Below, one piece after another: positions 16,148 to 22,850 of a stretch of DNA of 64,000 nt (positions are counted from its first letter, which is position 1; each line of letters begins with the position of its first letter). Source of the DNA: Escherichia coli 042 (GTDB lineage: Bacteria > Pseudomonadota > Gammaproteobacteria > Enterobacterales > Enterobacteriaceae); NCBI RefSeq assembly GCF_000027125.1, contig NC_017626.1; one strand, 5' to 3'. The notes below the pieces were generated by a model. That model saw only the letters and a program-made list of their open reading frames with translations. It was not told the DNA's origin and did not search any database. The position numbers were made by a program, and so were the translations under genes.

Positions 16148-16223
16148 GCCGATATAGCTCAGTTGGTAGAGCAGCGCATTCGTAATGCGAAGGTCGTAGG
16201 TTCGACTCCTATTATCGGCACCA
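16148..16223 (+). tRNA. thrW: tRNA-Thr (anticodon CGU)
   Basis: 76-nt cloverleaf GCCGATATAGCTCAGTTGGTAGAGCAGCGCATTCGTAATGCG...GGTTCGACTCCTATTATCGGCACCA; anticodon loop TTCGTAA; encoded CCA. Confidence 0.9.
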
Positions 16224-16224
16224 T

Positions 16225-16503
16225 TTAAATCAATAAGTTACACATAATTAGTACCTTCCTTTTTTTTGACTGGGACAAATTTGGGACCGATGGGTTCAGG
16301 ACTGAGTCTATTTGCCGTGCGTGTTCGGTAAGGTGATTAGGCGCGAGGTGAGCATATCGACGAACCATTTCGATAGACTCCCAGCCTCCCATTTCTGAAA
16401 ATGCAAGAAGAGAAACACTGGACTGAACCAGCCTGCTTGCCTTTGCTATCAAAGTACCTTGAAGGCCAGATGATTTCTGGCGATATTTACAGCGCTTCCG
16501 CAA
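16225..16503 (-). pseudogene. C-terminal remnant of a tyrosine recombinase (phage-type integrase), 3' end abutting thrW
   Basis: Translation [26 protein letters not shown] carries the integrase C-terminal box with the catalytic Tyr; at most about 90 codons are available before the next gene, so the catalytic core is missing. Confidence 0.55.
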
Positions 16504-16585
16504 TGAGTTTTTCTCTGTGCCGCCAGAGGCGTTCCCCGCTTTTTCAGCACCGCAATAATGTCGGCGGAATGCCAGTCCTGTTGCA

Positions 16586-17056
16586 TCATGCGGCCACCTC
16601 GCTGATAAATTTTACGCCGTCGGCGGTACGCAGCCAGCGTGGGGCTTTGAGTCCTTCCGTGAAATACCAGACCAGCTCACACAGCAGCCCGGTCAGGGTT
16701 TGCTCCATTTTTGGTTCCGCCGGACGTTCCAGCAGAAGCTGGAGTAGTGCGAGGCAGTATTCGCACAAGGAATCAGGTTCGGAAATAAAGTGCTCTGGTG
16801 TGGCGGGAAGGGTATCCACGGTCAGGCTTTCGGTAAGATGCGGTGGGATGGGGTCGTGTAGTGTGGGTTGCAGTAGCGCAAGAGCCGCGTGAAGCCGCCC
16901 GCAGAGCGCCAGTCGTAGCGCTGGATCGTCGGTTTCAATCAGGGTTTCGGCAAAGCGGGCGCAGTAGTCAGCAAGGACAGTGAAATCCGTGGTGGCATTG
17001 AAGGGGACGGTCAATAGATCGAGTAAATCGCTGTCAGTGGTGAGGATTGTAGCCAT
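16586..17056 (-). CDS. Hypothetical acidic, Leu/Ala/Pro-rich protein (156 aa) of unknown function
   Basis: Clean GC-rich ORF with plausible composition; the overlapping plus-strand ORF is Ser/Arg/Gly-rich and looks like a shadow frame. No motif recognised. Confidence 0.45.
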
Positions 17057-17402
17057 AGGGCAACCTCCGATAAGTGGGTGTTCAAGCCACCACCGGAGAG
17101 GCTAATCTCGCGGGTGGTGGAACCGGGCAGGGTTAGCCTTACCAGCCTTATCGGACACTGGCGCGTCTTGCGACGCCCCCGCCCGGCCCACCATTGAGAT
17201 GTAACCGTGCGAACAACACAAAAAAAGACGCTGGCGCGTCATGTGTCGCCGATAAGATTTCTTCAGGAGGCTAATCCCGACGCCTGATTTTGCAGGCGCG
17301 GGAGAAAGATACTGCGATTGGTCATGAGTGGCAAGGGCTACATCATGTTTACCGACATCTCACGCAAAAATACCCTGATTATTAATAGCGAAAATCAGTT
17401 TC

Positions 17403-20400
17403 TTATTTTGGCGGTAGCTTTTTGCGGTTCTTTGCCAACTGGAATCCTTCAGGTAACGGTTTGAATTTATCGCCGCCTTTAGGCCAGCGTTTTGCCCTGC
17501 TCTGAAATGCCCTTAACGAGTCGATATCCAGCGTTGCAGCGACCACAAAGTCATTATCACCGCCCTTCACACGAGCAATATCACGCATAAAGGGTTCTTT
17601 TGCCGGGGAACGTACGCGACTATCGCCGTATTTTCGGTTATTCACTAAAATAGTATAGGCATGAATATCCAGCGCTGCTGATTCAATCAACGATGCAAAC
17701 GTATCTAGATCTTTATTCCAGCTCAATACCATTAATGCATCGAGTGCGCCCTGAAAACGGATCCTCGCTTTACTATTCTGGAGTTCAGAGCAAATCATAA
17801 CGCCAAAATTGACGCCGTGATGAATATATACCGGCTTACGTTGTTTAACATTAAGTGTCGAATCCCAAGACTTACCATAAGTTGAAAATAATGCCTCATC
17901 TTCACCTACGGCGGGTTCCAGCTTGGGTTGCCATATTTTGACACTCGCTGGATAGCCGAGTCTGTTATCTGAAAGGACAAGTACGGCCTCACTCTTCAGT
18001 TGATTATCGTCTAAGTGGCGGTATTCTGTTCCCGCAATTAGACTGATACCCGCCGAACTCAAACGATCAGCAATACTGTTAACCCAGCGTAACGGGATTG
18101 AAAGCTCAGGGAATAAAACATAATCAGGTTTAGGAGATAGTTTCAATGTTGCATTAACCAGTTCAGAAATCCGCTGGTACCTTGAACGGGACAAGTTAGA
18201 TTTATTGCAGGCCATTTTAGCCCAGTCGTCCTCCTCTGTTTTAATGCTGGTTAGCGCAACGACAACTTTATGTTTCCTGTCTGTGCCAATATGAATGAAT
18301 TTCTTAGGCCGAGCTTTTTTTGTCGCTTCATCTGAGTCCTGCTCCGATGCTAGCAACGTCGGTTTGATCCATACTCCGCGTAATGCTTGAGTATATTTTG
18401 CCCAAATGGTGGACGGTCTCTCATCTGGTTTTTTGTCGGATGTGGAGGGTAATCCAACACATTCGGGGGCCAGTTCTGATATTTCAGCGGGTGTTAAAGG
18501 ACGTGTAGGGAAAATGTAAGGTAGGTAACTTTCGTTCTTACGATTTCCTTTAGCCACTTTTTCCAGTCGGGTATTCTTGGTTGATTTCAAAAATAGCTTA
18601 ATAACGTCAATATCAATAAGCGATGAGTCGCTCATTAATTTCAGTATTTTAACTTCTTTTTTACTATCACGCTGATTAACAAGTTTTTCTGCCGACTGAC
18701 TCTTTACGATCTGTTTATAAGGTTCCTTTGCTAAATCAGCTCGAGCTACCAATGGCGCTTTTAAATAAAAATCTGCTGAATCAAAGCGAAGATCCAGTAA
18801 ATCCTTTAGATTCGTCAGACTTTGTGAAATATGATTAAAAAATGTATCCGCAAGGCACTCTTCTTTCTTTGAACGTTTATCAAGAAATAATCTGTCAGGA
18901 CTGTAATATCGTGTCGCTGCATCAACAAATAGCCAGCTTAATGTGCCTTTTATACAGCGCCAAAGATCATTTACTGCTCGAGTTTTGCAACCATTTATAT
19001 TCACTTCCTTACCTGAAGTAATCACCGATGCCAACAGGTTGATGGATTCGTAAGCTTTAAGTACAATTTTTTCCGCGTGCTGCCATTCATTCATACTGAT
19101 AGCAAAGCCAAGCAGCCTTGGCAGATAACTAAAATGTGCAAATAGATTATCAGCCCTAAGAATATGGTTGTAGGCAAACTGATAAAACTCTTCCCGCTGT
19201 TCTTTCCATTCACTTGGAGGCAGATCTCGTGCCAGTGTTTCAACGTAGCGTAATTGCAGTGACCAGCCCAAACGACGAATGGTTAATCCATCCGCACGGC
19301 GCAGAGTATCGGCATTTTCACCTACACTACCGGCAGCGGAAAGGACTTTAGCTGCGGTGGAGTGTTCCAGTTGATCCGGTGAAGGCATCAAGCGGTGTTC
19401 ACTAGAAAGCTCGTAGATCTCCTTTTCGATACTGTCGAGCAGGTCTATTCCAGCCCTCCCTTGAAGCACGAAAAGTTTTTGCTTATCGGATTGTAACTGG
19501 ATGGTGGTCTTACCCTGGAAATGCTCGCCCTGCTGTATTTGCCATATTTGTTTTTGCTCGTTTTTCAAATAAACGCAATCATTGCCAAGCCTATCTTGCA
19601 GCAATAACATAAATTCGTGATTATTAGTAATTGTCCCTGTATCGCGTATTACAAGGAACATATCATCGACATAACGACCGTAGTGAATTGGTGATAGTTT
19701 TTCAATGACTAATTTATCCCAATGGTGTAGCAATATATTTGAAATGATCCGACTGGCTGTTAATCCAATGACCAGACCACCATTAATAACAGGTGTTTTG
19801 TACGCTATTTTCTTTCCAAATGCCGCTGCGCCGTCAGACCAGTGCTTTAAGAATACTGCTAACTGTGCAGTAAACGCTTTTTCATCCTCAGTCAGTTTTA
19901 TGTTTAGTGTGTTATAGAGATCATCAGAGGTTATAGCCAGTGGATCAATAAAATGATAGTAACTTTTTAAATCCAGTGAGGCGGCGATAATGTCACGATC
20001 TTTTTCCAACTCGTCACGTATAGCTTTTAAGCCATCACCACGCCATTTTTGGTAGGGCTGGAAGTAGGGGCTAAAAGAACCCACGGCACTGATATGGAAT
20101 GGATTATCCTGCTCATTGCTAAATAATTCATCATTACGAATACGCTTTAGCCGCGCGCCATAGCAACAGTTATCTAAGCTGGCATCAAATTTATGCCCGA
20201 CCATGTTAATCCATAGTGCAGAGATAATGTGACTATCAACCGGGAAGTCACCAATAATACGAAACTCTGGTATCAGATCAAAATTATTAAATAAATGGTC
20301 GGCTGCTCGTTTAGGATTAGAAAAGTGGACGTGTCCATTTTGGGATTCATGTTTTTTCTTTGTGGTTAATTTTTTCGGTAACAAACGAAATTTGCCAATC

Positions 20401-20612
20401 AACTTCTTATTGCTACTGAATCCATCTTCGCTCTGCAAAAGATCTAAGAGTTTTTGCAGGTTTTCAAGTAATTCCTGCTCATACTCGGCAAATTTGATAG
20501 CAACAGGAAATGTATTCTCAAAGAAGCTATCGGCTTTTGCTTTCCGGTAAGCGACCAGAAGGTCTTCAATCGTCAGATCATCCCAGCCAGTGAAAATTGC
20601 CTGATATGTCAT
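17403..20612 (-). CDS. Reverse transcriptase fused to a C-terminal nitrilase (carbon-nitrogen hydrolase) domain; candidate anti-phage RT (DRT type 1 / UG1-like)
   Basis: 1069 aa. RT motifs: LDLKSYYHFID (motif A-like, aa 213-223), GGLVIGLTASRIISNIL (motif B-like), HYGRYVDDMFLVI (motif C YVDD, aa 314-317, nt 19662-19673). C-terminal nitrilase triad candidates: FPE (E836), VKIWQPK (K892), GVMICSE (C941). AT-rich relative to flanks. Confidence 0.85.
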   Translation of the reverse strand: MTYQAIFTGWDDLTIEDLLVAYRKAKADSFFENTFPVAIKFAEYEQELLENLQKLLDLLQSEDGFSSNKKLIGKFRLLPKKLTTKKKHESQNGHVHFSNPKRAADHLFNNFDLIPEFRIIGDFPVDSHIISALWINMVGHKFDASLDNCCYGARLKRIRNDELFSNEQDNPFHISAVGSFSPYFQPYQKWRGDGLKAIRDELEKDRDIIAASLDLKSYYHFIDPLAITSDDLYNTLNIKLTEDEKAFTAQLAVFLKHWSDGAAAFGKKIAYKTPVINGGLVIGLTASRIISNILLHHWDKLVIEKLSPIHYGRYVDDMFLVIRDTGTITNNHEFMLLLQDRLGNDCVYLKNEQKQIWQIQQGEHFQGKTTIQLQSDKQKLFVLQGRAGIDLLDSIEKEIYELSSEHRLMPSPDQLEHSTAAKVLSAAGSVGENADTLRRADGLTIRRLGWSLQLRYVETLARDLPPSEWKEQREEFYQFAYNHILRADNLFAHFSYLPRLLGFAISMNEWQHAEKIVLKAYESINLLASVITSGKEVNINGCKTRAVNDLWRCIKGTLSWLFVDAATRYYSPDRLFLDKRSKKEECLADTFFNHISQSLTNLKDLLDLRFDSADFYLKAPLVARADLAKEPYKQIVKSQSAEKLVNQRDSKKEVKILKLMSDSSLIDIDVIKLFLKSTKNTRLEKVAKGNRKNESYLPYIFPTRPLTPAEISELAPECVGLPSTSDKKPDERPSTIWAKYTQALRGVWIKPTLLASEQDSDEATKKARPKKFIHIGTDRKHKVVVALTSIKTEEDDWAKMACNKSNLSRSRYQRISELVNATLKLSPKPDYVLFPELSIPLRWVNSIADRLSSAGISLIAGTEYRHLDDNQLKSEAVLVLSDNRLGYPASVKIWQPKLEPAVGEDEALFSTYGKSWDSTLNVKQRKPVYIHHGVNFGVMICSELQNSKARIRFQGALDALMVLSWNKDLDTFASLIESAALDIHAYTILVNNRKYGDSRVRSPAKEPFMRDIARVKGGDNDFVVAATLDIDSLRAFQSRAKRWPKGGDKFKPLPEGFQLAKNRKKLPPK

Positions 20613-20906
20613 GCGTTATCGTCCTTAGATTACAGTCTGTACAGAATTAGCCAGCCGTTTCATGCCCGAAGGGGGGCTCTTGACACCAGTAATCCATCAG
20701 TGAGGCTGGCAATAATTTTGATTTGTATCCATGTTACACGCTCCCCGCAACCAGTCCGAGCATATATTTGTCACATTTTTCCCGAAAGTGATTAAGTTTG
20801 AATTTTTTGTTTAATGTCGATTTTTAGTCGACAAAATGAGGAATAAGTAAACTATTTCTTGCTGTGGCGTATCCCTGAATCTACACTGGTTTAAATATTT
20901 GTACTA

Positions 20907-21710
20907 ATGTCTATTCAGAGGCGACAGTTGCCAAACTATCTAAACTGGCTGATGCAGCACACGCTACCCGGCCAGGTGCTGCTCCAGTCATGGCTTACCC
21001 GCAACGGCATAGATCGTAAGCTCTCTTATCTCTATGTGAAGAATGGCTGGCTCAGGCGGATCGCTCACGGCGTATACTGCCGGACGGGCCGTGAGCCGGA
21101 TTGGGTAGACGCGGTTTACTGCCTTCAAACACAGTGGGAAAAGCCTGTTCGGGTGGCGGGGCTAACCAGCCTTGCGCTTCAGGGCCATGCGCACTATACC
21201 GAACCGGGTAAGCCGCAGGTCTGGCTCGCGCTTCCGGCTTACGTTAAGCTGCCGGGATGGTTTGCTGCCTTCGAACAATCTGCAACATTTATCACGCTGT
21301 ATACATCGGGGCTTACCGTAGATGTAACGTCATTGACTACGGAACTGAAAATTGGCGACCGCCAGTTAGCAGGCAGTGCCCCGGAACTGGCCGCGTATGA
21401 GATCGCCTGCGGCGTTCCTTCGTTGATATCGTTCGAACATGCCGATGCTCTGTTTCAGGGGATGAATCTTCTCAGCCCGCGTAAATTGCAGGCGTTACTC
21501 TGCGCCAGTCATTCGGTTAAAACCAACCGGGTGATGCTTTACCTTGCCCGGCGTAATGGACACCCTTATTTTCAGTATCTTGATCAAAGCGGTATAGAAA
21601 CAGGTACGGGAAAGCGGCAAATCATACCTGGTGGCTGGCTGGAGCCGGATTATCAAATTACTGTTCCACGCGAATTTAAACCGGAAGGAGTCGAAGATGG
21701 ATCTGCGTGA
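20907..21710 (+). CDS. AbiEi-family transcriptional regulator / type IV antitoxin
   Basis: 267 aa; N-terminal AbiEi-type winged-helix signature (YVKNGWLRRIAHGVYCRTG); overlaps and precedes a nucleotidyltransferase gene. Confidence 0.7.
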   Translation: MSIQRRQLPNYLNWLMQHTLPGQVLLQSWLTRNGIDRKLSYLYVKNGWLRRIAHGVYCRTGREPDWVDAVYCLQTQWEKPVRVAGLTSLALQGHAHYTEPGKPQVWLALPAYVKLPGWFAAFEQSATFITLYTSGLTVDVTSLTTELKIGDRQLAGSAPELAAYEIACGVPSLISFEHADALFQGMNLLSPRKLQALLCASHSVKTNRVMLYLARRNGHPYFQYLDQSGIETGTGKRQIIPGGWLEPDYQITVPREFKPEGVEDGSA

Positions 21711-22617
21711 TAGCTATACCCGGCAGGTCAAACTGTTGATGGACGCTCTGCCGCATGTGGCGAAGGAGTCCGGTTTCGCATTAAAAGGCGGCACCGCAAT
21801 CAATTTGTTTGTGCAGGATTTTCCCCGTCTGTCGGTGGATATCGATCTGGCGTATAAGACTTTTGCGGATCGCGATACCGATTTGACGGCGATCAACGAC
21901 GCTTTGAAGAGAATTACTGCATCGCTGAACAGTAAACCGGGGATTACCGCGATTCGGCAGGAAAATAAAACGGATGAAAAGCGCATCATTGTGAATACGG
22001 CTGATGCCCAGATTAAGATCGAGGTTAGTCCGGTCTGGCGTGGGCTATTGTTGCCTCCGGCAGAAATGTCGGTGTGCGAACGTGTGGAAATGGAGTATGG
22101 CTTCACCACTATGAGTGTCGTTTCGCTGGCGGATCTTTATGGCGGTAAAATCTGCGCAGCGCTTGATCGTCAGCACCCGCGCGATCTGTTTGATGTGCTG
22201 AATATGCTGGAGAAACCGGGACTGATGCGGGAGATCTTTGACGGTTTTCTTTGTTATCTGGCAGGCCATCCCCGCCCCATTGCCGAGTTGCTGGCTCCAA
22301 ACTGGGATACAGAGCGGATCACGACGCTGTATGCTCAGGAATTTTCGGGGATGACTCAGCAGGAAACGTCGCTGGAATCGCTGCTGTCAGTAACGACTTT
22401 GCTGCCGCAGGCGTTGAAGTCACATCTTACGGATCTGGATCGCGAGTTCTTGCTCAGTTTTAAGCAAAACAGCCCTGACTGGTCGCGGTATCGCTATCCT
22501 GAAATTCAGCATCTTCCGGCTATTCGCTGGAAGCAACGTAATCTGGCGGTGCTGAAAGATAAAAATCCGGCGAAGTATGTGGCGGCGGTGAATAAGCTAG
22601 AGAGGGTGCTGGCGTAA
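21697..22617 (+). CDS. AbiEii/AbiGii-family nucleotidyltransferase toxin (DUF1814)
   Basis: Start set at ATG 21697 (GGAAGGAG Shine-Dalgarno, 14-nt overlap with the upstream gene); nucleotidyltransferase motif ALKGGTAINLF...RLSVDIDLA. Confidence 0.75.
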   Translation: MDLRDSYTRQVKLLMDALPHVAKESGFALKGGTAINLFVQDFPRLSVDIDLAYKTFADRDTDLTAINDALKRITASLNSKPGITAIRQENKTDEKRIIVNTADAQIKIEVSPVWRGLLLPPAEMSVCERVEMEYGFTTMSVVSLADLYGGKICAALDRQHPRDLFDVLNMLEKPGLMREIFDGFLCYLAGHPRPIAELLAPNWDTERITTLYAQEFSGMTQQETSLESLLSVTTLLPQALKSHLTDLDREFLLSFKQNSPDWSRYRYPEIQHLPAIRWKQRNLAVLKDKNPAKYVAAVNKLERVLA

Positions 22618-22682
22618 TCAATAGACCAGCATTAATCACAGAAGATTACCAATCAGACAGAAATGGTTAAATCGTCGAATTC

Positions 22683-22850
22683 ATAATTAATACTTTTTCT
22701 TACGCCGCTGAACAGCTTGAAAAGGATACATATTTTAAATATCAGTGAAGTGAACAGTTTATTGCCGTTATTAATAGAGATGGAGGAATAAATACGCGTA
22801 TTCTACTATTGCAACAAAAAAAACGATGATGATCAGTTTTCATAATGAAG
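22683..22850 (-). repeat. Decayed paralogous copy of the ykgO 3' end plus ykgR region (duplicate of sequence at 41307-41340 and 42020-42176)
   Basis: 22683-22720 aligns to the rpmJ2 3' end at about 75% identity with a 1-nt frameshift (tail ...AVQRRKKKY vs ...AVQGRKKKR); 22723-22850 is about 90% identical to 42030-42160 but with a roughly 28-nt deletion in the ykgR-like frame. Confidence 0.5.

What the first reader, a model, noticed from the sequence alone, without database searches (positions are those of the whole stretch)
20907..22617. AbiEi/AbiEii (type IV toxin-antitoxin / abortive infection) pair with 14-nt translational overlap, divergent from the RT gene
The upstream protein has the AbiEi N-terminal signature (YVKNGWLRRIAHGVYCRTG) and the downstream one a DUF1814 nucleotidyltransferase motif (ALKGGTAINLF…RLSVDIDLA). 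The downstream ATG (21697) lies inside the upstream gene's last codons and is preceded by GGAAGGAG, indicating coupled translation. AbiE systems are established abortive-infection modules in which AbiEi autoregulates the operon. The pair shares a 294-bp divergent control region (20613-20906) with the RT-nitrilase gene, so coordinated regulation is possible but unproven.
Basis: partly seen in the sequence, partly recalled or inferred. Interest (0 to 1): 0.5.

Follow-up and report, generated by a model that had tools for sequence, protein, structure and literature searches.

The report
Ordinary AbiE toxin-antitoxin gene pair
This is a correctly recognised and already annotated AbiEi/AbiEii toxin-antitoxin pair, sitting at the edge of an E. 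coli tRNA-Thr island; it works as a self-contained module, and the reverse-transcriptase gene next to it is an interchangeable neighbour, not a partner.

Summary
Two same-strand genes overlap by 14 nt (21697-21710), and GGAAGGAG lies 6 nt before the second ATG. The proteins match AbiEi (Pfam AbiEi_3_N + AbiEi_3; PADLOC 1.6e-79) and AbiEii (PF08843; PADLOC 7.9e-116).

Corrections:
- The antitoxin belongs to AbiEi_3 (DUF2893), not AbiEi_4.
- Its start is most likely TTG 20928 (260 aa), not ATG 20907.
- A 2026 preprint reassigns AbiE from type IV to type VII (antitoxin-induced toxin autophosphorylation).
- Coupling to the RT is not supported. Of 832 E. coli genomes with this abiE lineage, 259 have the RT beside it and 549 have a type I restriction-modification system. 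None of 85 non-E. coli loci has an RT.

New detail: two palindromic sites (TGTCnA-N7-nCGACA, at 20815-20833 and 20908-20926) flank a conserved promoter and are candidate AbiEi operators.

Identical proteins are already annotated in public databases. Verdict: already known, low interest.

The parts
20928..21710 (+). abiEi antitoxin gene (260 aa from TTG 20928; an in-frame ATG at 20907 would give 267 aa). N-terminal winged-helix DNA-binding domain plus C-terminal antitoxin domain.
   Evidence: Pfam AbiEi_3_N 4.5e-29 and AbiEi_3 5.7e-35. PADLOC AbiEi 1.6e-79. The AlphaFold model (pLDDT 89.9) matches Rv2827c 1ZEL (E 1.6e-9) and S. agalactiae AbiEi 6Y8Q (E 1.6e-6). Homologue N-termini and the invariant TTG support the start. 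RefSeq annotates 260 aa.
21697..22617 (+). abiEii toxin gene (306 aa), a DUF1814/COG2253 nucleotidyltransferase
21697..21710 (+). 14-nt overlap between the abiEi stop (TGA 21708-21710) and the abiEii start (ATG 21697-21699)
   Evidence: Read directly from the sequence. An overlap is present in 67 of 75 related loci.
21683..21690 (+). Shine-Dalgarno-like GGAAGGAG, 6 nt upstream of the abiEii ATG and inside abiEi coding sequence
   Evidence: It is conserved in 8 of 9 other alleles from 6 genera.
20908..20926 (.). IR2, a candidate AbiEi operator: TGTCTA-N7-GCGACA. It covers the abiEi Shine-Dalgarno AGAGG (20917-20921) and ends 1 nt before TTG 20928.
   Evidence: The half-sites are invariant across six genera even though synonymous sites are saturated (dS about 1 to Pectobacterium). 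Function is inferred, not shown.
20815..20833 (.). IR1, a candidate AbiEi operator: the perfect palindrome TGTCGA-N7-TCGACA, 93 bp upstream of IR2 and 25 bp upstream of the -35 element
   Evidence: The same 93-bp spacing is found in E. coli, Pectobacterium and K. aerogenes. The motif occurs nowhere else in the 64-kb window (0.13 matches expected by chance). Function is inferred.
20859..20887 (+). Putative abiE promoter: -35 TTGCTG (20859-20864), a 17-nt spacer, -10 TACACT (20882-20887). The predicted transcription start is near 20894, inside the conserved GTTTAAnnATT block (20889-20899).
   Evidence: TG of the -35 element and A2 and T6 of the -10 element are invariant in the 8-sequence alignment. 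The match to consensus is weak (7 of 12), so the tool's scan did not report it. Inferred.
17403..20612 (-). Neighbouring RT_UG5-nitrilase gene (1069 aa). It is context only and not part of the abiE module.
   Evidence: PADLOC RT_UG5-nitrilase E = 0. It is present beside abiE in only 259 of 832 E. coli carriers and is absent from 85 non-E. coli abiE loci.

Best explanation
This is an autonomous, intact AbiE module of the AbiEi_3 (DUF2893) / AbiEii (DUF1814, COG2253) subfamily.

**Expression.** abiEi and abiEii form one operon. It is probably transcribed from a weak sigma-70 promoter at 20859-20887. abiEii translation is probably coupled to abiEi through the 14-nt overlap and an internal Shine-Dalgarno sequence.

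**Toxin.** AbiEii is a pol-beta-fold nucleotidyltransferase. By analogy with MenT toxins and Serratia AbiE-T2, it most likely adds nucleotides to tRNA 3' ends and arrests translation and growth.

**Antitoxin.** AbiEi has two inferred roles. Its winged-helix domain represses the operon, probably at two palindromic sites (IR1 20815-20833, IR2 20908-20926) on either side of the promoter. Its C-terminal domain neutralises AbiEii, plausibly by inducing autophosphorylation of Ser46, as shown for S. agalactiae AbiEii T65 and MenT3 S78.

**Setting.** The pair sits at the distal edge of a decayed element integrated at tRNA-Thr (thrW). It is the constant partner of a slot that holds either an RT-nitrilase or a type I R-M system. 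Its biological role is abortive-infection defence, stabilisation of the island, or both.

**Shown here:** family identity, fold, intact motifs, operon architecture, purifying selection, modular distribution, and conservation of the repeats.
**Inferred:** toxicity, the tRNA target, phosphorylation, operator binding and the phage phenotype.
For: **Family and fold**
- Pfam and PADLOC hits.
- The toxin model matches MenT4, MenT3 and MenT1.
- The antitoxin model matches Rv2827c and S. agalactiae AbiEi.

**Catalytic motifs**
- Motifs I-IV as defined by Dy et al. 2014 (PMC3985639) are all present and invariant.
- S46 sits 2 residues before the DxD. This is the position of the phospho-acceptors T65 (S. 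agalactiae) and S46 (Serratia AbiE-T2).

**Architecture**
- The antitoxin-then-toxin order is found in 80 of 80 related loci, and the genes overlap in 67 of 75.

**Selection**
- dN/dS is 0.07-0.17 for both genes against 7 alleles.

**Functional relatives**
- Serratia sp. ATCC 39006 AbiE-2 has an AbiEi_3-type antitoxin. Its toxin cuts E. coli viability 10^6-fold, is rescued only by the cognate antitoxin, and perturbs tRNAs. Its primer-encoded termini place it in this roughly 305-aa subfamily.
- AbiEi_3 antitoxin genes are essential in two Pectobacterium species by Tn-seq.

**Candidate operators**
- The motif is unique in the window.
- It is 118-fold enriched upstream of abiEi compared with the rest of the loci.
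- It is conserved across genera.

**Autonomy**
- Neighbours vary between genomes.
Against: - No experiment exists on this locus.
- Neither protein nor its profile finds any solved structure by sequence. The link to characterised AbiE and MenT proteins therefore rests on Pfam/PADLOC profiles and on predicted folds at 13-18% identity.
- Phage defence has never been shown for the AbiEi_3 subfamily. S. agalactiae AbiE gave no protection against 32 coliphages in E. coli.
- The proposed promoter matches consensus at only 7 of 12 positions, and the scan tool did not call it.
- The candidate operators (two 19-bp palindromes 93 bp apart) are arranged differently from the mapped AbiEi and Rv2827c operators, which are 23-bp repeats 3-13 bp apart.
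- The equivalent of the antitoxin loop needed for phosphorylation in S. agalactiae AbiEi (D85-E86-I87) was not mapped here.
Confidence: 0.85

Rival explanations
1. abiE and the RT-nitrilase form one co-regulated, two-part defence system. AbiEi bound in the shared intergenic region would control both divergent promoters, or the two modules would depend on each other.
For: - The two are divergent neighbours 294-315 bp apart.
- IR1 lies between the two genes.
- A UG5-large RT-nitrilase in S. meliloti also lies next to an AbiEii-like toxin module.
- In the three RT-carrying E. coli genomes compared with the window, the RT side and the abiE promoter are almost identical to it, which suggests they spread together recently.
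Against: - Only 259 of 832 E. coli genomes with this abiE lineage have the RT junction. In 549 genomes hsdR of a type I R-M system takes its place.
- Homology between the two island types begins only at about 20704, so the 90 bp nearest the RT belong to the RT.
- No RT homologue lies within 8 kb of abiE in 80 GTDB loci or in 5 enterobacterial loci.
- K. aerogenes carries the pair on its own among housekeeping genes.
- UG5-large needs only its RT and nitrilase domains for defence.
- Recombination breakpoints fall inside abiE. The RT and the abiE coding region therefore do not share one history.
Confidence: 0.07
2. The pair's main role is as an addiction or stabilisation module, not as an abortive-infection system. 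It would keep the thrW island and whatever cargo lies beside it from being lost.
For: - abiE is the constant element at the edge of a variable region whose integrase is decayed. Its cargo alternates between an RT and an R-M system.
- AbiE stabilises an ICE in S. suis (PMC11062541; title and abstract only).
- Antitoxin genes of this type are essential in Pectobacterium and Serratia in the absence of phage.
- S. agalactiae AbiE gave no coliphage protection.
Against: - L. lactis AbiE is an abortive-infection system, as stated.
- The locus sits among defence genes here and in other genera: type I R-M, Lamassu-like genes and integrases.
- PADLOC classes it as a defence system.
- The two roles are not mutually exclusive.
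Confidence: 0.35
3. The pair is an inactive remnant, carried along in a decaying island.
For: - The island's integrase and HTH genes are pseudogenes.
- The RT is split in strain MEI003.
- E. coli AbiEii ends 3 residues earlier than homologues in other genera.
Against: - Both ORFs are full length and every catalytic motif is intact.
- dN/dS is 0.07-0.17.
- The start codons, Shine-Dalgarno sites and upstream palindromes are conserved.
- Identical proteins occur on about 100 public contigs.
Confidence: 0.04

Closest known systems
Serratia sp. ATCC 39006 AbiE-2 (AbiE-A2 / AbiE-T2; Hampton et al. 2020, PMC7725324)
   Same: - It has the same antitoxin Pfam family (AbiEi_3).
- The toxin belongs to the same roughly 305-aa subfamily. 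Its primers encode MDKHSPYY... and ...LAEWIE*, which fit the alignment termini.
- Ser46 is at the same position.
- The operon layout is the same.
- It was shown to be a toxin-antitoxin pair with tRNA dysregulation.
   Different: - Its genomic site is different.
- No operator has been mapped in either system.
M. tuberculosis Rv2827c-Rv2826c (MenA4-MenT4)
   Same: - The antitoxin has two domains and autorepresses through repeats in the promoter.
   Different: - Sequence identity is only 13-18%, with no sequence-level hit.
- Rv2827c binds four tandem 23-bp repeats. Here there are two 19-bp palindromes 93 bp apart.
S. agalactiae AbiEi-AbiEii (Dy et al. 2014; Arrowsmith et al. 2026 preprint)
   Same: - The operon is bicistronic and overlapping (4 nt there, 14 nt here).
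- NTase motifs I-IV are shared.
- A Ser/Thr lies 2 residues before the DxD motif.
- The antitoxin combines a winged-helix domain with a C-terminal domain.
   Different: - Its antitoxin is the shorter DUF4095/COG5340 type (195 aa, against 260 aa here).
- Its operators are two 23-bp repeats 3 bp apart that overlap the promoter.
- Toxicity, phosphorylation and pyrimidine-specific NTase activity were shown there but not here.
E. coli CFT073 c3681-c3682, the capsule-linked AbiE (PMC12488582)
   Same: It is an AbiEi/AbiEii pair in E. coli and was reported to alter susceptibility to some phages.
   Different: It sits at a different locus, upstream of the kps capsule genes. It probably belongs to the roughly 45-55% identity paralogue group seen. 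This was not checked directly.

Membership tests
AbiE (AbiEi/AbiEii) toxin-antitoxin / abortive infection family | The toxin is a DUF1814 (PF08843, COG2253) protein. | tested here: met
   Pfam PF08843 8.8e-35 over residues 14-221. PADLOC AbiEii 7.9e-116, full length.
AbiE (AbiEi/AbiEii) toxin-antitoxin / abortive infection family | NTase motifs I (hG[G/S]), II (x15, R...DhD), III (KhxAxxxR) and IV (+DxxD), as defined in Dy et al. 2014 | tested here: met
   G31-G32; 15 residues to D48-I49-D50, with R44; K151...R158; R162-D163-L-F-D166. All are invariant in 16 homologues.
AbiE (AbiEi/AbiEii) toxin-antitoxin / abortive infection family | The toxin has the MenT/AbiEii fold. | tested here: met
   [not shown]
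AbiE (AbiEi/AbiEii) toxin-antitoxin / abortive infection family | The upstream gene encodes a two-domain AbiEi-type antitoxin: an N-terminal winged helix plus a C-terminal domain. | tested here: met
   AbiEi_3_N 4.5e-29 and AbiEi_3 5.7e-35. The model matches Rv2827c and S. agalactiae AbiEi at probability 1.00. DUF2893 is listed as an AbiEi family in Dy et al. 2014.
AbiE (AbiEi/AbiEii) toxin-antitoxin / abortive infection family | Bicistronic antitoxin-then-toxin operon with overlapping or abutting genes | tested here: met
   The genes overlap by 14 nt on the same strand. The same order is found in 80 of 80 related loci and an overlap in 67 of 75. Co-transcription itself was not measured.
AbiE (AbiEi/AbiEii) toxin-antitoxin / abortive infection family | The toxin arrests growth and the cognate antitoxin neutralises it. 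| not testable with these tools
   Indirect evidence only: Serratia AbiE-2 and the essentiality of AbiEi_3 genes in Pectobacterium.
AbiE (AbiEi/AbiEii) toxin-antitoxin / abortive infection family | AbiEi negatively autoregulates by binding repeats in its own promoter. | tested here: inconclusive
   Two conserved palindromes (IR1, IR2) flank a conserved -35/-10 pair. Binding and repression could not be tested. The layout differs from the mapped operators.
AbiE (AbiEi/AbiEii) toxin-antitoxin / abortive infection family | Confers abortive-infection phage resistance. | not testable with these tools
   No data exist for this locus or for the AbiEi_3 subfamily. S. agalactiae AbiE was negative against 32 coliphages.
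Type VII (phosphorylation-neutralised) DUF1814 systems (MenA3-MenT3, S. agalactiae AbiE) | A Ser/Thr phospho-acceptor lies 2 residues before the catalytic DxD of the toxin. | tested here: met
   S46 in R44-L-S46-V-D48-I-D50 is invariant in 16 homologues. The equivalent residues are T65 (S. agalactiae, 2 residues before D67), S78 (MenT3) and S46 (Serratia AbiE-T2). Phosphorylation itself was not tested.
   E = 0.0046 and 17.5 bits over residues 43-59 only. The significant matches are to AbiEi_3_N and AbiEi_3.
Composite RT-nitrilase + AbiE system | The RT gene and abiE co-occur consistently across genomes. | tested here: not met
   Of 832 E. coli carriers, 259 have the RT junction and 549 have the hsdR junction. 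None of 85 non-E. coli loci has an RT homologue within 8 kb.

The most novel reading that the evidence does not exclude
The abiE module may be the fixed anchor of a cargo-exchange slot at the thrW island. Its roughly 205-bp upstream region (conserved block 20704-20800 plus IR1) travels with it. Through that region AbiEi might also set the expression of whichever defence gene is inserted divergently, either the RT-nitrilase or hsdR. Meanwhile the toxin would penalise deletion of the slot. On this reading a toxin-antitoxin pair would act as both regulator and guardian of interchangeable defence cargo.
Probability: 0.1. Interest if true: 0.45.

Novelty: already known. Interest (0 to 1): 0.18.

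Why it matters
It matters little as a discovery. The family was defined in 2014, a same-subfamily pair has been shown to work in Serratia, and NCBI already names these exact proteins.

Three modest points are useful:
- The locus gives a clean, testable operator and promoter prediction for the AbiEi_3 class of antitoxins, for which no operator has been mapped.
- It shows that the RT-nitrilase and abiE should be scored as two independent systems when defence islands are annotated.
- It is a well-populated natural example of alternative cargo beside a constant toxin-antitoxin pair: 259 genomes with the RT and 549 with type I R-M.

Tried and rejected
- **NCBIfam.** No model matches either protein.
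- **PDB sequence searches.** Single proteins and profiles of 16-18 homologues gave nothing below E = 0.5. Only predicted-structure comparison links the pair to solved AbiE and MenT structures.
- **Promoter and terminator scan.** It found no promoter in the intergenic region at its 9-of-12 threshold and no terminator after abiEii. The promoter I propose rests on cross-genus conservation alone.
- **An RNA-level role for IR2.** The predicted leader (20894-20960) folds no better than shuffled sequence (z = 0.49). Rfam finds no family in 20600-22700.
- **The 38-nt direct repeat with a 10-codon mini-ORF at its first copy.** I reinterpret it as two copies of the palindromic site. The mini-ORF is not conserved as a reading frame in ST131.
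- **A tRNA-derived attR at the right end of the island.** None was found; the best match is 9 nt.
- **RT-abiE coupling.** Rejected on distribution.
- **ATG 20907 as the start codon.** Considered and judged less likely:
  - No Shine-Dalgarno sequence precedes it.
  - It lies about 13 nt from the predicted transcription start.
  - Residues 1-6 have pLDDT below 50.
  - Homologues start 7 codons later.
  - It cannot be excluded, because an in-frame ATG or TTG is kept at that position in all genera.
Full report
**1. Observation**

The window contains ORF 20907-21710 (+, 267 aa from the first ATG) and an ORF on the same strand whose conserved start is ATG 21697, ending at 22617 (306 aa).

- The upstream stop (TGA 21708-21710) lies 14 nt past the downstream ATG.
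- GGAAGGAG occupies 21683-21690, 6 nt before that ATG.
- The RT gene (17403-20612, minus strand) is divergent, and 294 bp separate it from ATG 20907.

**2. Identity**

*Profiles.*
- Pfam assigns the upstream protein to AbiEi_3_N (4.5e-29) plus AbiEi_3 (5.7e-35).
- The downstream protein is AbiEii, PF08843 (8.8e-35).
- PADLOC models agree: AbiEi 1.6e-79 and AbiEii 7.9e-116. The neighbour is RT_UG5-nitrilase.
- NCBIfam has no model for either protein.
- Sequence and profile searches of the PDB find nothing.

*Predicted structures.*
- The AbiEi model (pLDDT 89.9) matches Rv2827c (1ZEL, E 1.6e-9) and S. agalactiae AbiEi (6Y8Q, E 1.6e-6).
- Structurally, the pair is closest to the M. tuberculosis Rv2827c-Rv2826c pair.

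*Catalytic motifs.* Dy et al. 2014 defined four AbiEii motifs and showed each to be needed for toxicity. All four are present and invariant among 16 homologues:

| Motif | Residues here |
|---|---|
| I | G31-G32 |
| II | 15-residue spacer, then R44 and D48-I-D50 |
| III | K151...R158 |
| IV | R162-D163-x-x-D166 |

Ser46 lies two residues before the DxD. This is the position of the phospho-acceptor T65 in S. agalactiae AbiEii and of S78 in MenT3. Serratia AbiE-T2 has S46 with the same numbering.

**3. Start codon of the antitoxin**

Homologues of 31-97% identity begin at the residue that aligns with Leu8 of the 267-aa ORF. That codon, TTG 20928-20930, has the following support:

- It is invariant in an alignment of eight upstream regions from six genera.
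- It is preceded by AGAGG (20917-20921) at a 6-nt spacing.
- All nine alleles I extracted start with TTG there.
- RefSeq annotates 260 aa.
- Residues 1-6 of the longer form have pLDDT below 50.

ATG 20907 is TTG in the other genera, so an upstream in-frame start cannot be formally excluded. It has no Shine-Dalgarno sequence.

**4. Architecture is a family trait**

A pattern scan of one genome per GTDB species returned 80 loci from Proteobacteria, Bacteroidota, Chlorobi, Melainabacteria, Nitrospirales and others.

- In all 80 an AbiEi_3-like ORF lies directly upstream on the same strand.
- Among the 75 loci whose start could be scored, 67 overlap by 1-43 nt. All but two of these overlap by 4-26 nt; the modes are 8, 11, 14, 4 and 20, and 14 nt occurs in 11.
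- The other 8 loci have gaps of 3-22 nt.
- The internal Shine-Dalgarno sequence before abiEii is conserved in the close relatives.
- dN/dS against seven alleles is 0.07-0.17 for both genes, which points to function.

**5. Regulatory region**

The repeat finder reported a 38-nt direct repeat, 20796-20833 and 20889-20926. Cross-genus alignment resolves this into two copies of a palindromic site:

- IR1: TGTCGA-N7-TCGACA, 20815-20833.
- IR2: TGTCTA-N7-GCGACA, 20908-20926.

The two sites are 93 bp apart.

- The pattern TGTCNA-N8-CGACA occurs nowhere else in the 64-kb window, where 0.13 matches are expected by chance.
- Across 84 loci, TGTC-N11-GACA is 118 times denser in the 250 bp before abiEi than elsewhere.
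- The 93-bp spacing recurs in Pectobacterium and K. aerogenes, even though synonymous sites are saturated (dS about 1).

Between the two sites lie TTGCTG (20859-20864), a 17-nt spacer and TACACT (20882-20887). The TG of the -35 element and A2 and T6 of the -10 element are invariant. The match to consensus is only 7 of 12, so the scan tool did not report it.

IR2 covers the abiEi Shine-Dalgarno sequence and would lie at about +15 to +33. The predicted leader has no significant RNA structure (z = 0.49) and no Rfam match. I therefore read the palindromes as DNA operators.

Mapped AbiEi and Rv2827c operators are 23-bp repeats 3-13 bp apart that overlap the promoter. The principle is the same here, but the layout differs. 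Binding is inferred, not shown.

**6. Context and the RT question**

The locus sits 4.7 kb from tRNA-Thr (16148-16223). The surrounding island is annotated in E. coli genomes as follows: integrase fragment, HTH fragment, hypothetical gene, ash gene, RT, AbiEi, AbiEii, then core genes (ykgR fragment, LysR regulator, pao operon).

Counts among 5,426 complete E. coli genomes:

| Feature | Genomes |
|---|---|
| This abiE lineage | 832 |
| RT-abiEi junction | 259 |
| hsdR-abiEi junction (type I R-M, e.g. ST131) | 549 |

- Homology between the two island types starts at about 20704.
- Pectobacterium has the R-M arrangement. Photorhabdus has integrases and Lamassu-like genes nearby. K. aerogenes carries the pair alone. 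Buttiauxella has other candidate defence genes beside it.
- No RT homologue lies near abiE in 85 non-E. coli loci. Type I R-M genes lie near abiE in 9 of them.
- The window is identical to strain 7/2 from 16500 to 21000, then 5-6% divergent up to 22600. It is identical to MEI003 up to 21500. Recombination breakpoints therefore lie inside the operon.
- A UG5-large RT-nitrilase works on its own in S. meliloti, where it also happens to have an AbiEii-like neighbour.

Taken together, abiE is autonomous and the RT is one of two alternative neighbours.

**7. Mechanism, with its basis**

*Shown here:* family, fold, motifs, operon layout, selection and modularity.

*From the literature:*
- Same-subfamily Serratia AbiE-T2 reduces E. 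coli viability 10^6-fold, is rescued only by its own AbiEi_3-type antitoxin, and perturbs tRNA levels (subfamily assignment from primer-encoded termini).
- AbiEi_3 genes are essential in two Pectobacterium species.
- MenT3 adds pyrimidines to tRNA 3'-CCA ends (as cited).
- S. agalactiae AbiEi binds AbiEii and induces autophosphorylation of T65, which abolishes NTase activity.

*Inferred for this locus:* a tRNA-directed NTase toxin, neutralisation through S46 phosphorylation, autorepression through IR1 and IR2, and translational coupling.

The phage-defence role is unproven. S. agalactiae AbiE gave no protection against 32 coliphages. A different, capsule-linked AbiE in CFT073 modestly alters phage susceptibility.

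**8. Novelty**

- The identical AbiEii (for example accession CBG33141.1) is on 111 public contigs, and the identical 260-aa AbiEi is on 96. Both are named as AbiE proteins.
- DUF2893-DUF1814 pairs were described as AbiE systems in 2014.
- AbiEii is listed among the systems at E. coli defence hotspots.

The finding is correct and already known. The operator prediction and the RT versus R-M cargo alternation are the only additions.

Noticed in passing
window 17110-17312 (- strand): Rfam finds C4 antisense RNA (17110-17198, 71 bits), isrK Hfq-binding RNA (17221-17299, 69 bits) and the c4-a1b1 target element (17260-17312). They lie next to the 'ash family' ORF, between the RT gene and tRNA-Thr. 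These are immunity-RNA elements of a P1/P4-like mobile element, which fits a decayed integrative element.
   Followed up: no
window 17403-20612 (- strand): The RT gene is a UG5-large RT-nitrilase (PADLOC E = 0). It is essentially identical (>=99%, 100% in the listed hits) in about 259 complete E. coli genomes, and it is split into two ORFs in strain MEI003. No transmembrane-protein gene follows it, although the literature describes one as typical for UG5-large. In this it resembles the S. meliloti DRT11 variant.
   Followed up: partly
window 21000-22600, compared with L001, L002, L003 and L004: E. coli abiE alleles differ at dS 0.09-0.21, well above the flanking core genes. Breakpoints fall inside the operon: about 21000 against strain 7/2 and about 21500 against MEI003. 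The RT side is identical in these comparisons. No complete RefSeq E. coli genome matches 20613-22700 at better than 98.1%, although the exact proteins exist in public draft data.
   Followed up: partly
window 20704-20800: A non-coding block upstream of IR1 (including ATGTTACACG) travels with abiE in ST131, Pectobacterium and K. aerogenes, whatever the neighbouring gene. Its function is unknown. The short ORF that starts in it is not frame-conserved.
   Followed up: partly
window 22607-22700: The variable region ends at about 22607, right at the abiEii stop. The next 94 bp are shared with E. coli genomes that lack the island, such as O157:H7. No tRNA-derived direct repeat (attR) was found.
   Followed up: partly
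loci L011, L074, L044, L052 and others: In several distant species the abiE pair lies beside, or between, type I R-M genes (hsdM ... abiE ... hsdR). This suggests a recurrent association between abiE and type I R-M that extends beyond E. coli and Pectobacterium.
   Followed up: no
NZ_CP146678.1 (E. coli MS 69-1, a 64,057-bp record typed as a plasmid): This strain carries a second copy of the RT-less abiE region on a 64-kb record labelled as a plasmid, in addition to the chromosomal copy. This could be a misassembly or a real mobilised segment.
   Followed up: no
window 22600-22617: E. coli AbiEii alleles end ...KLERVLA* (306 aa). Homologues in the other genera continue ...LEQYF* (309 aa). This is a small, lineage-specific C-terminal difference.
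   Followed up: no
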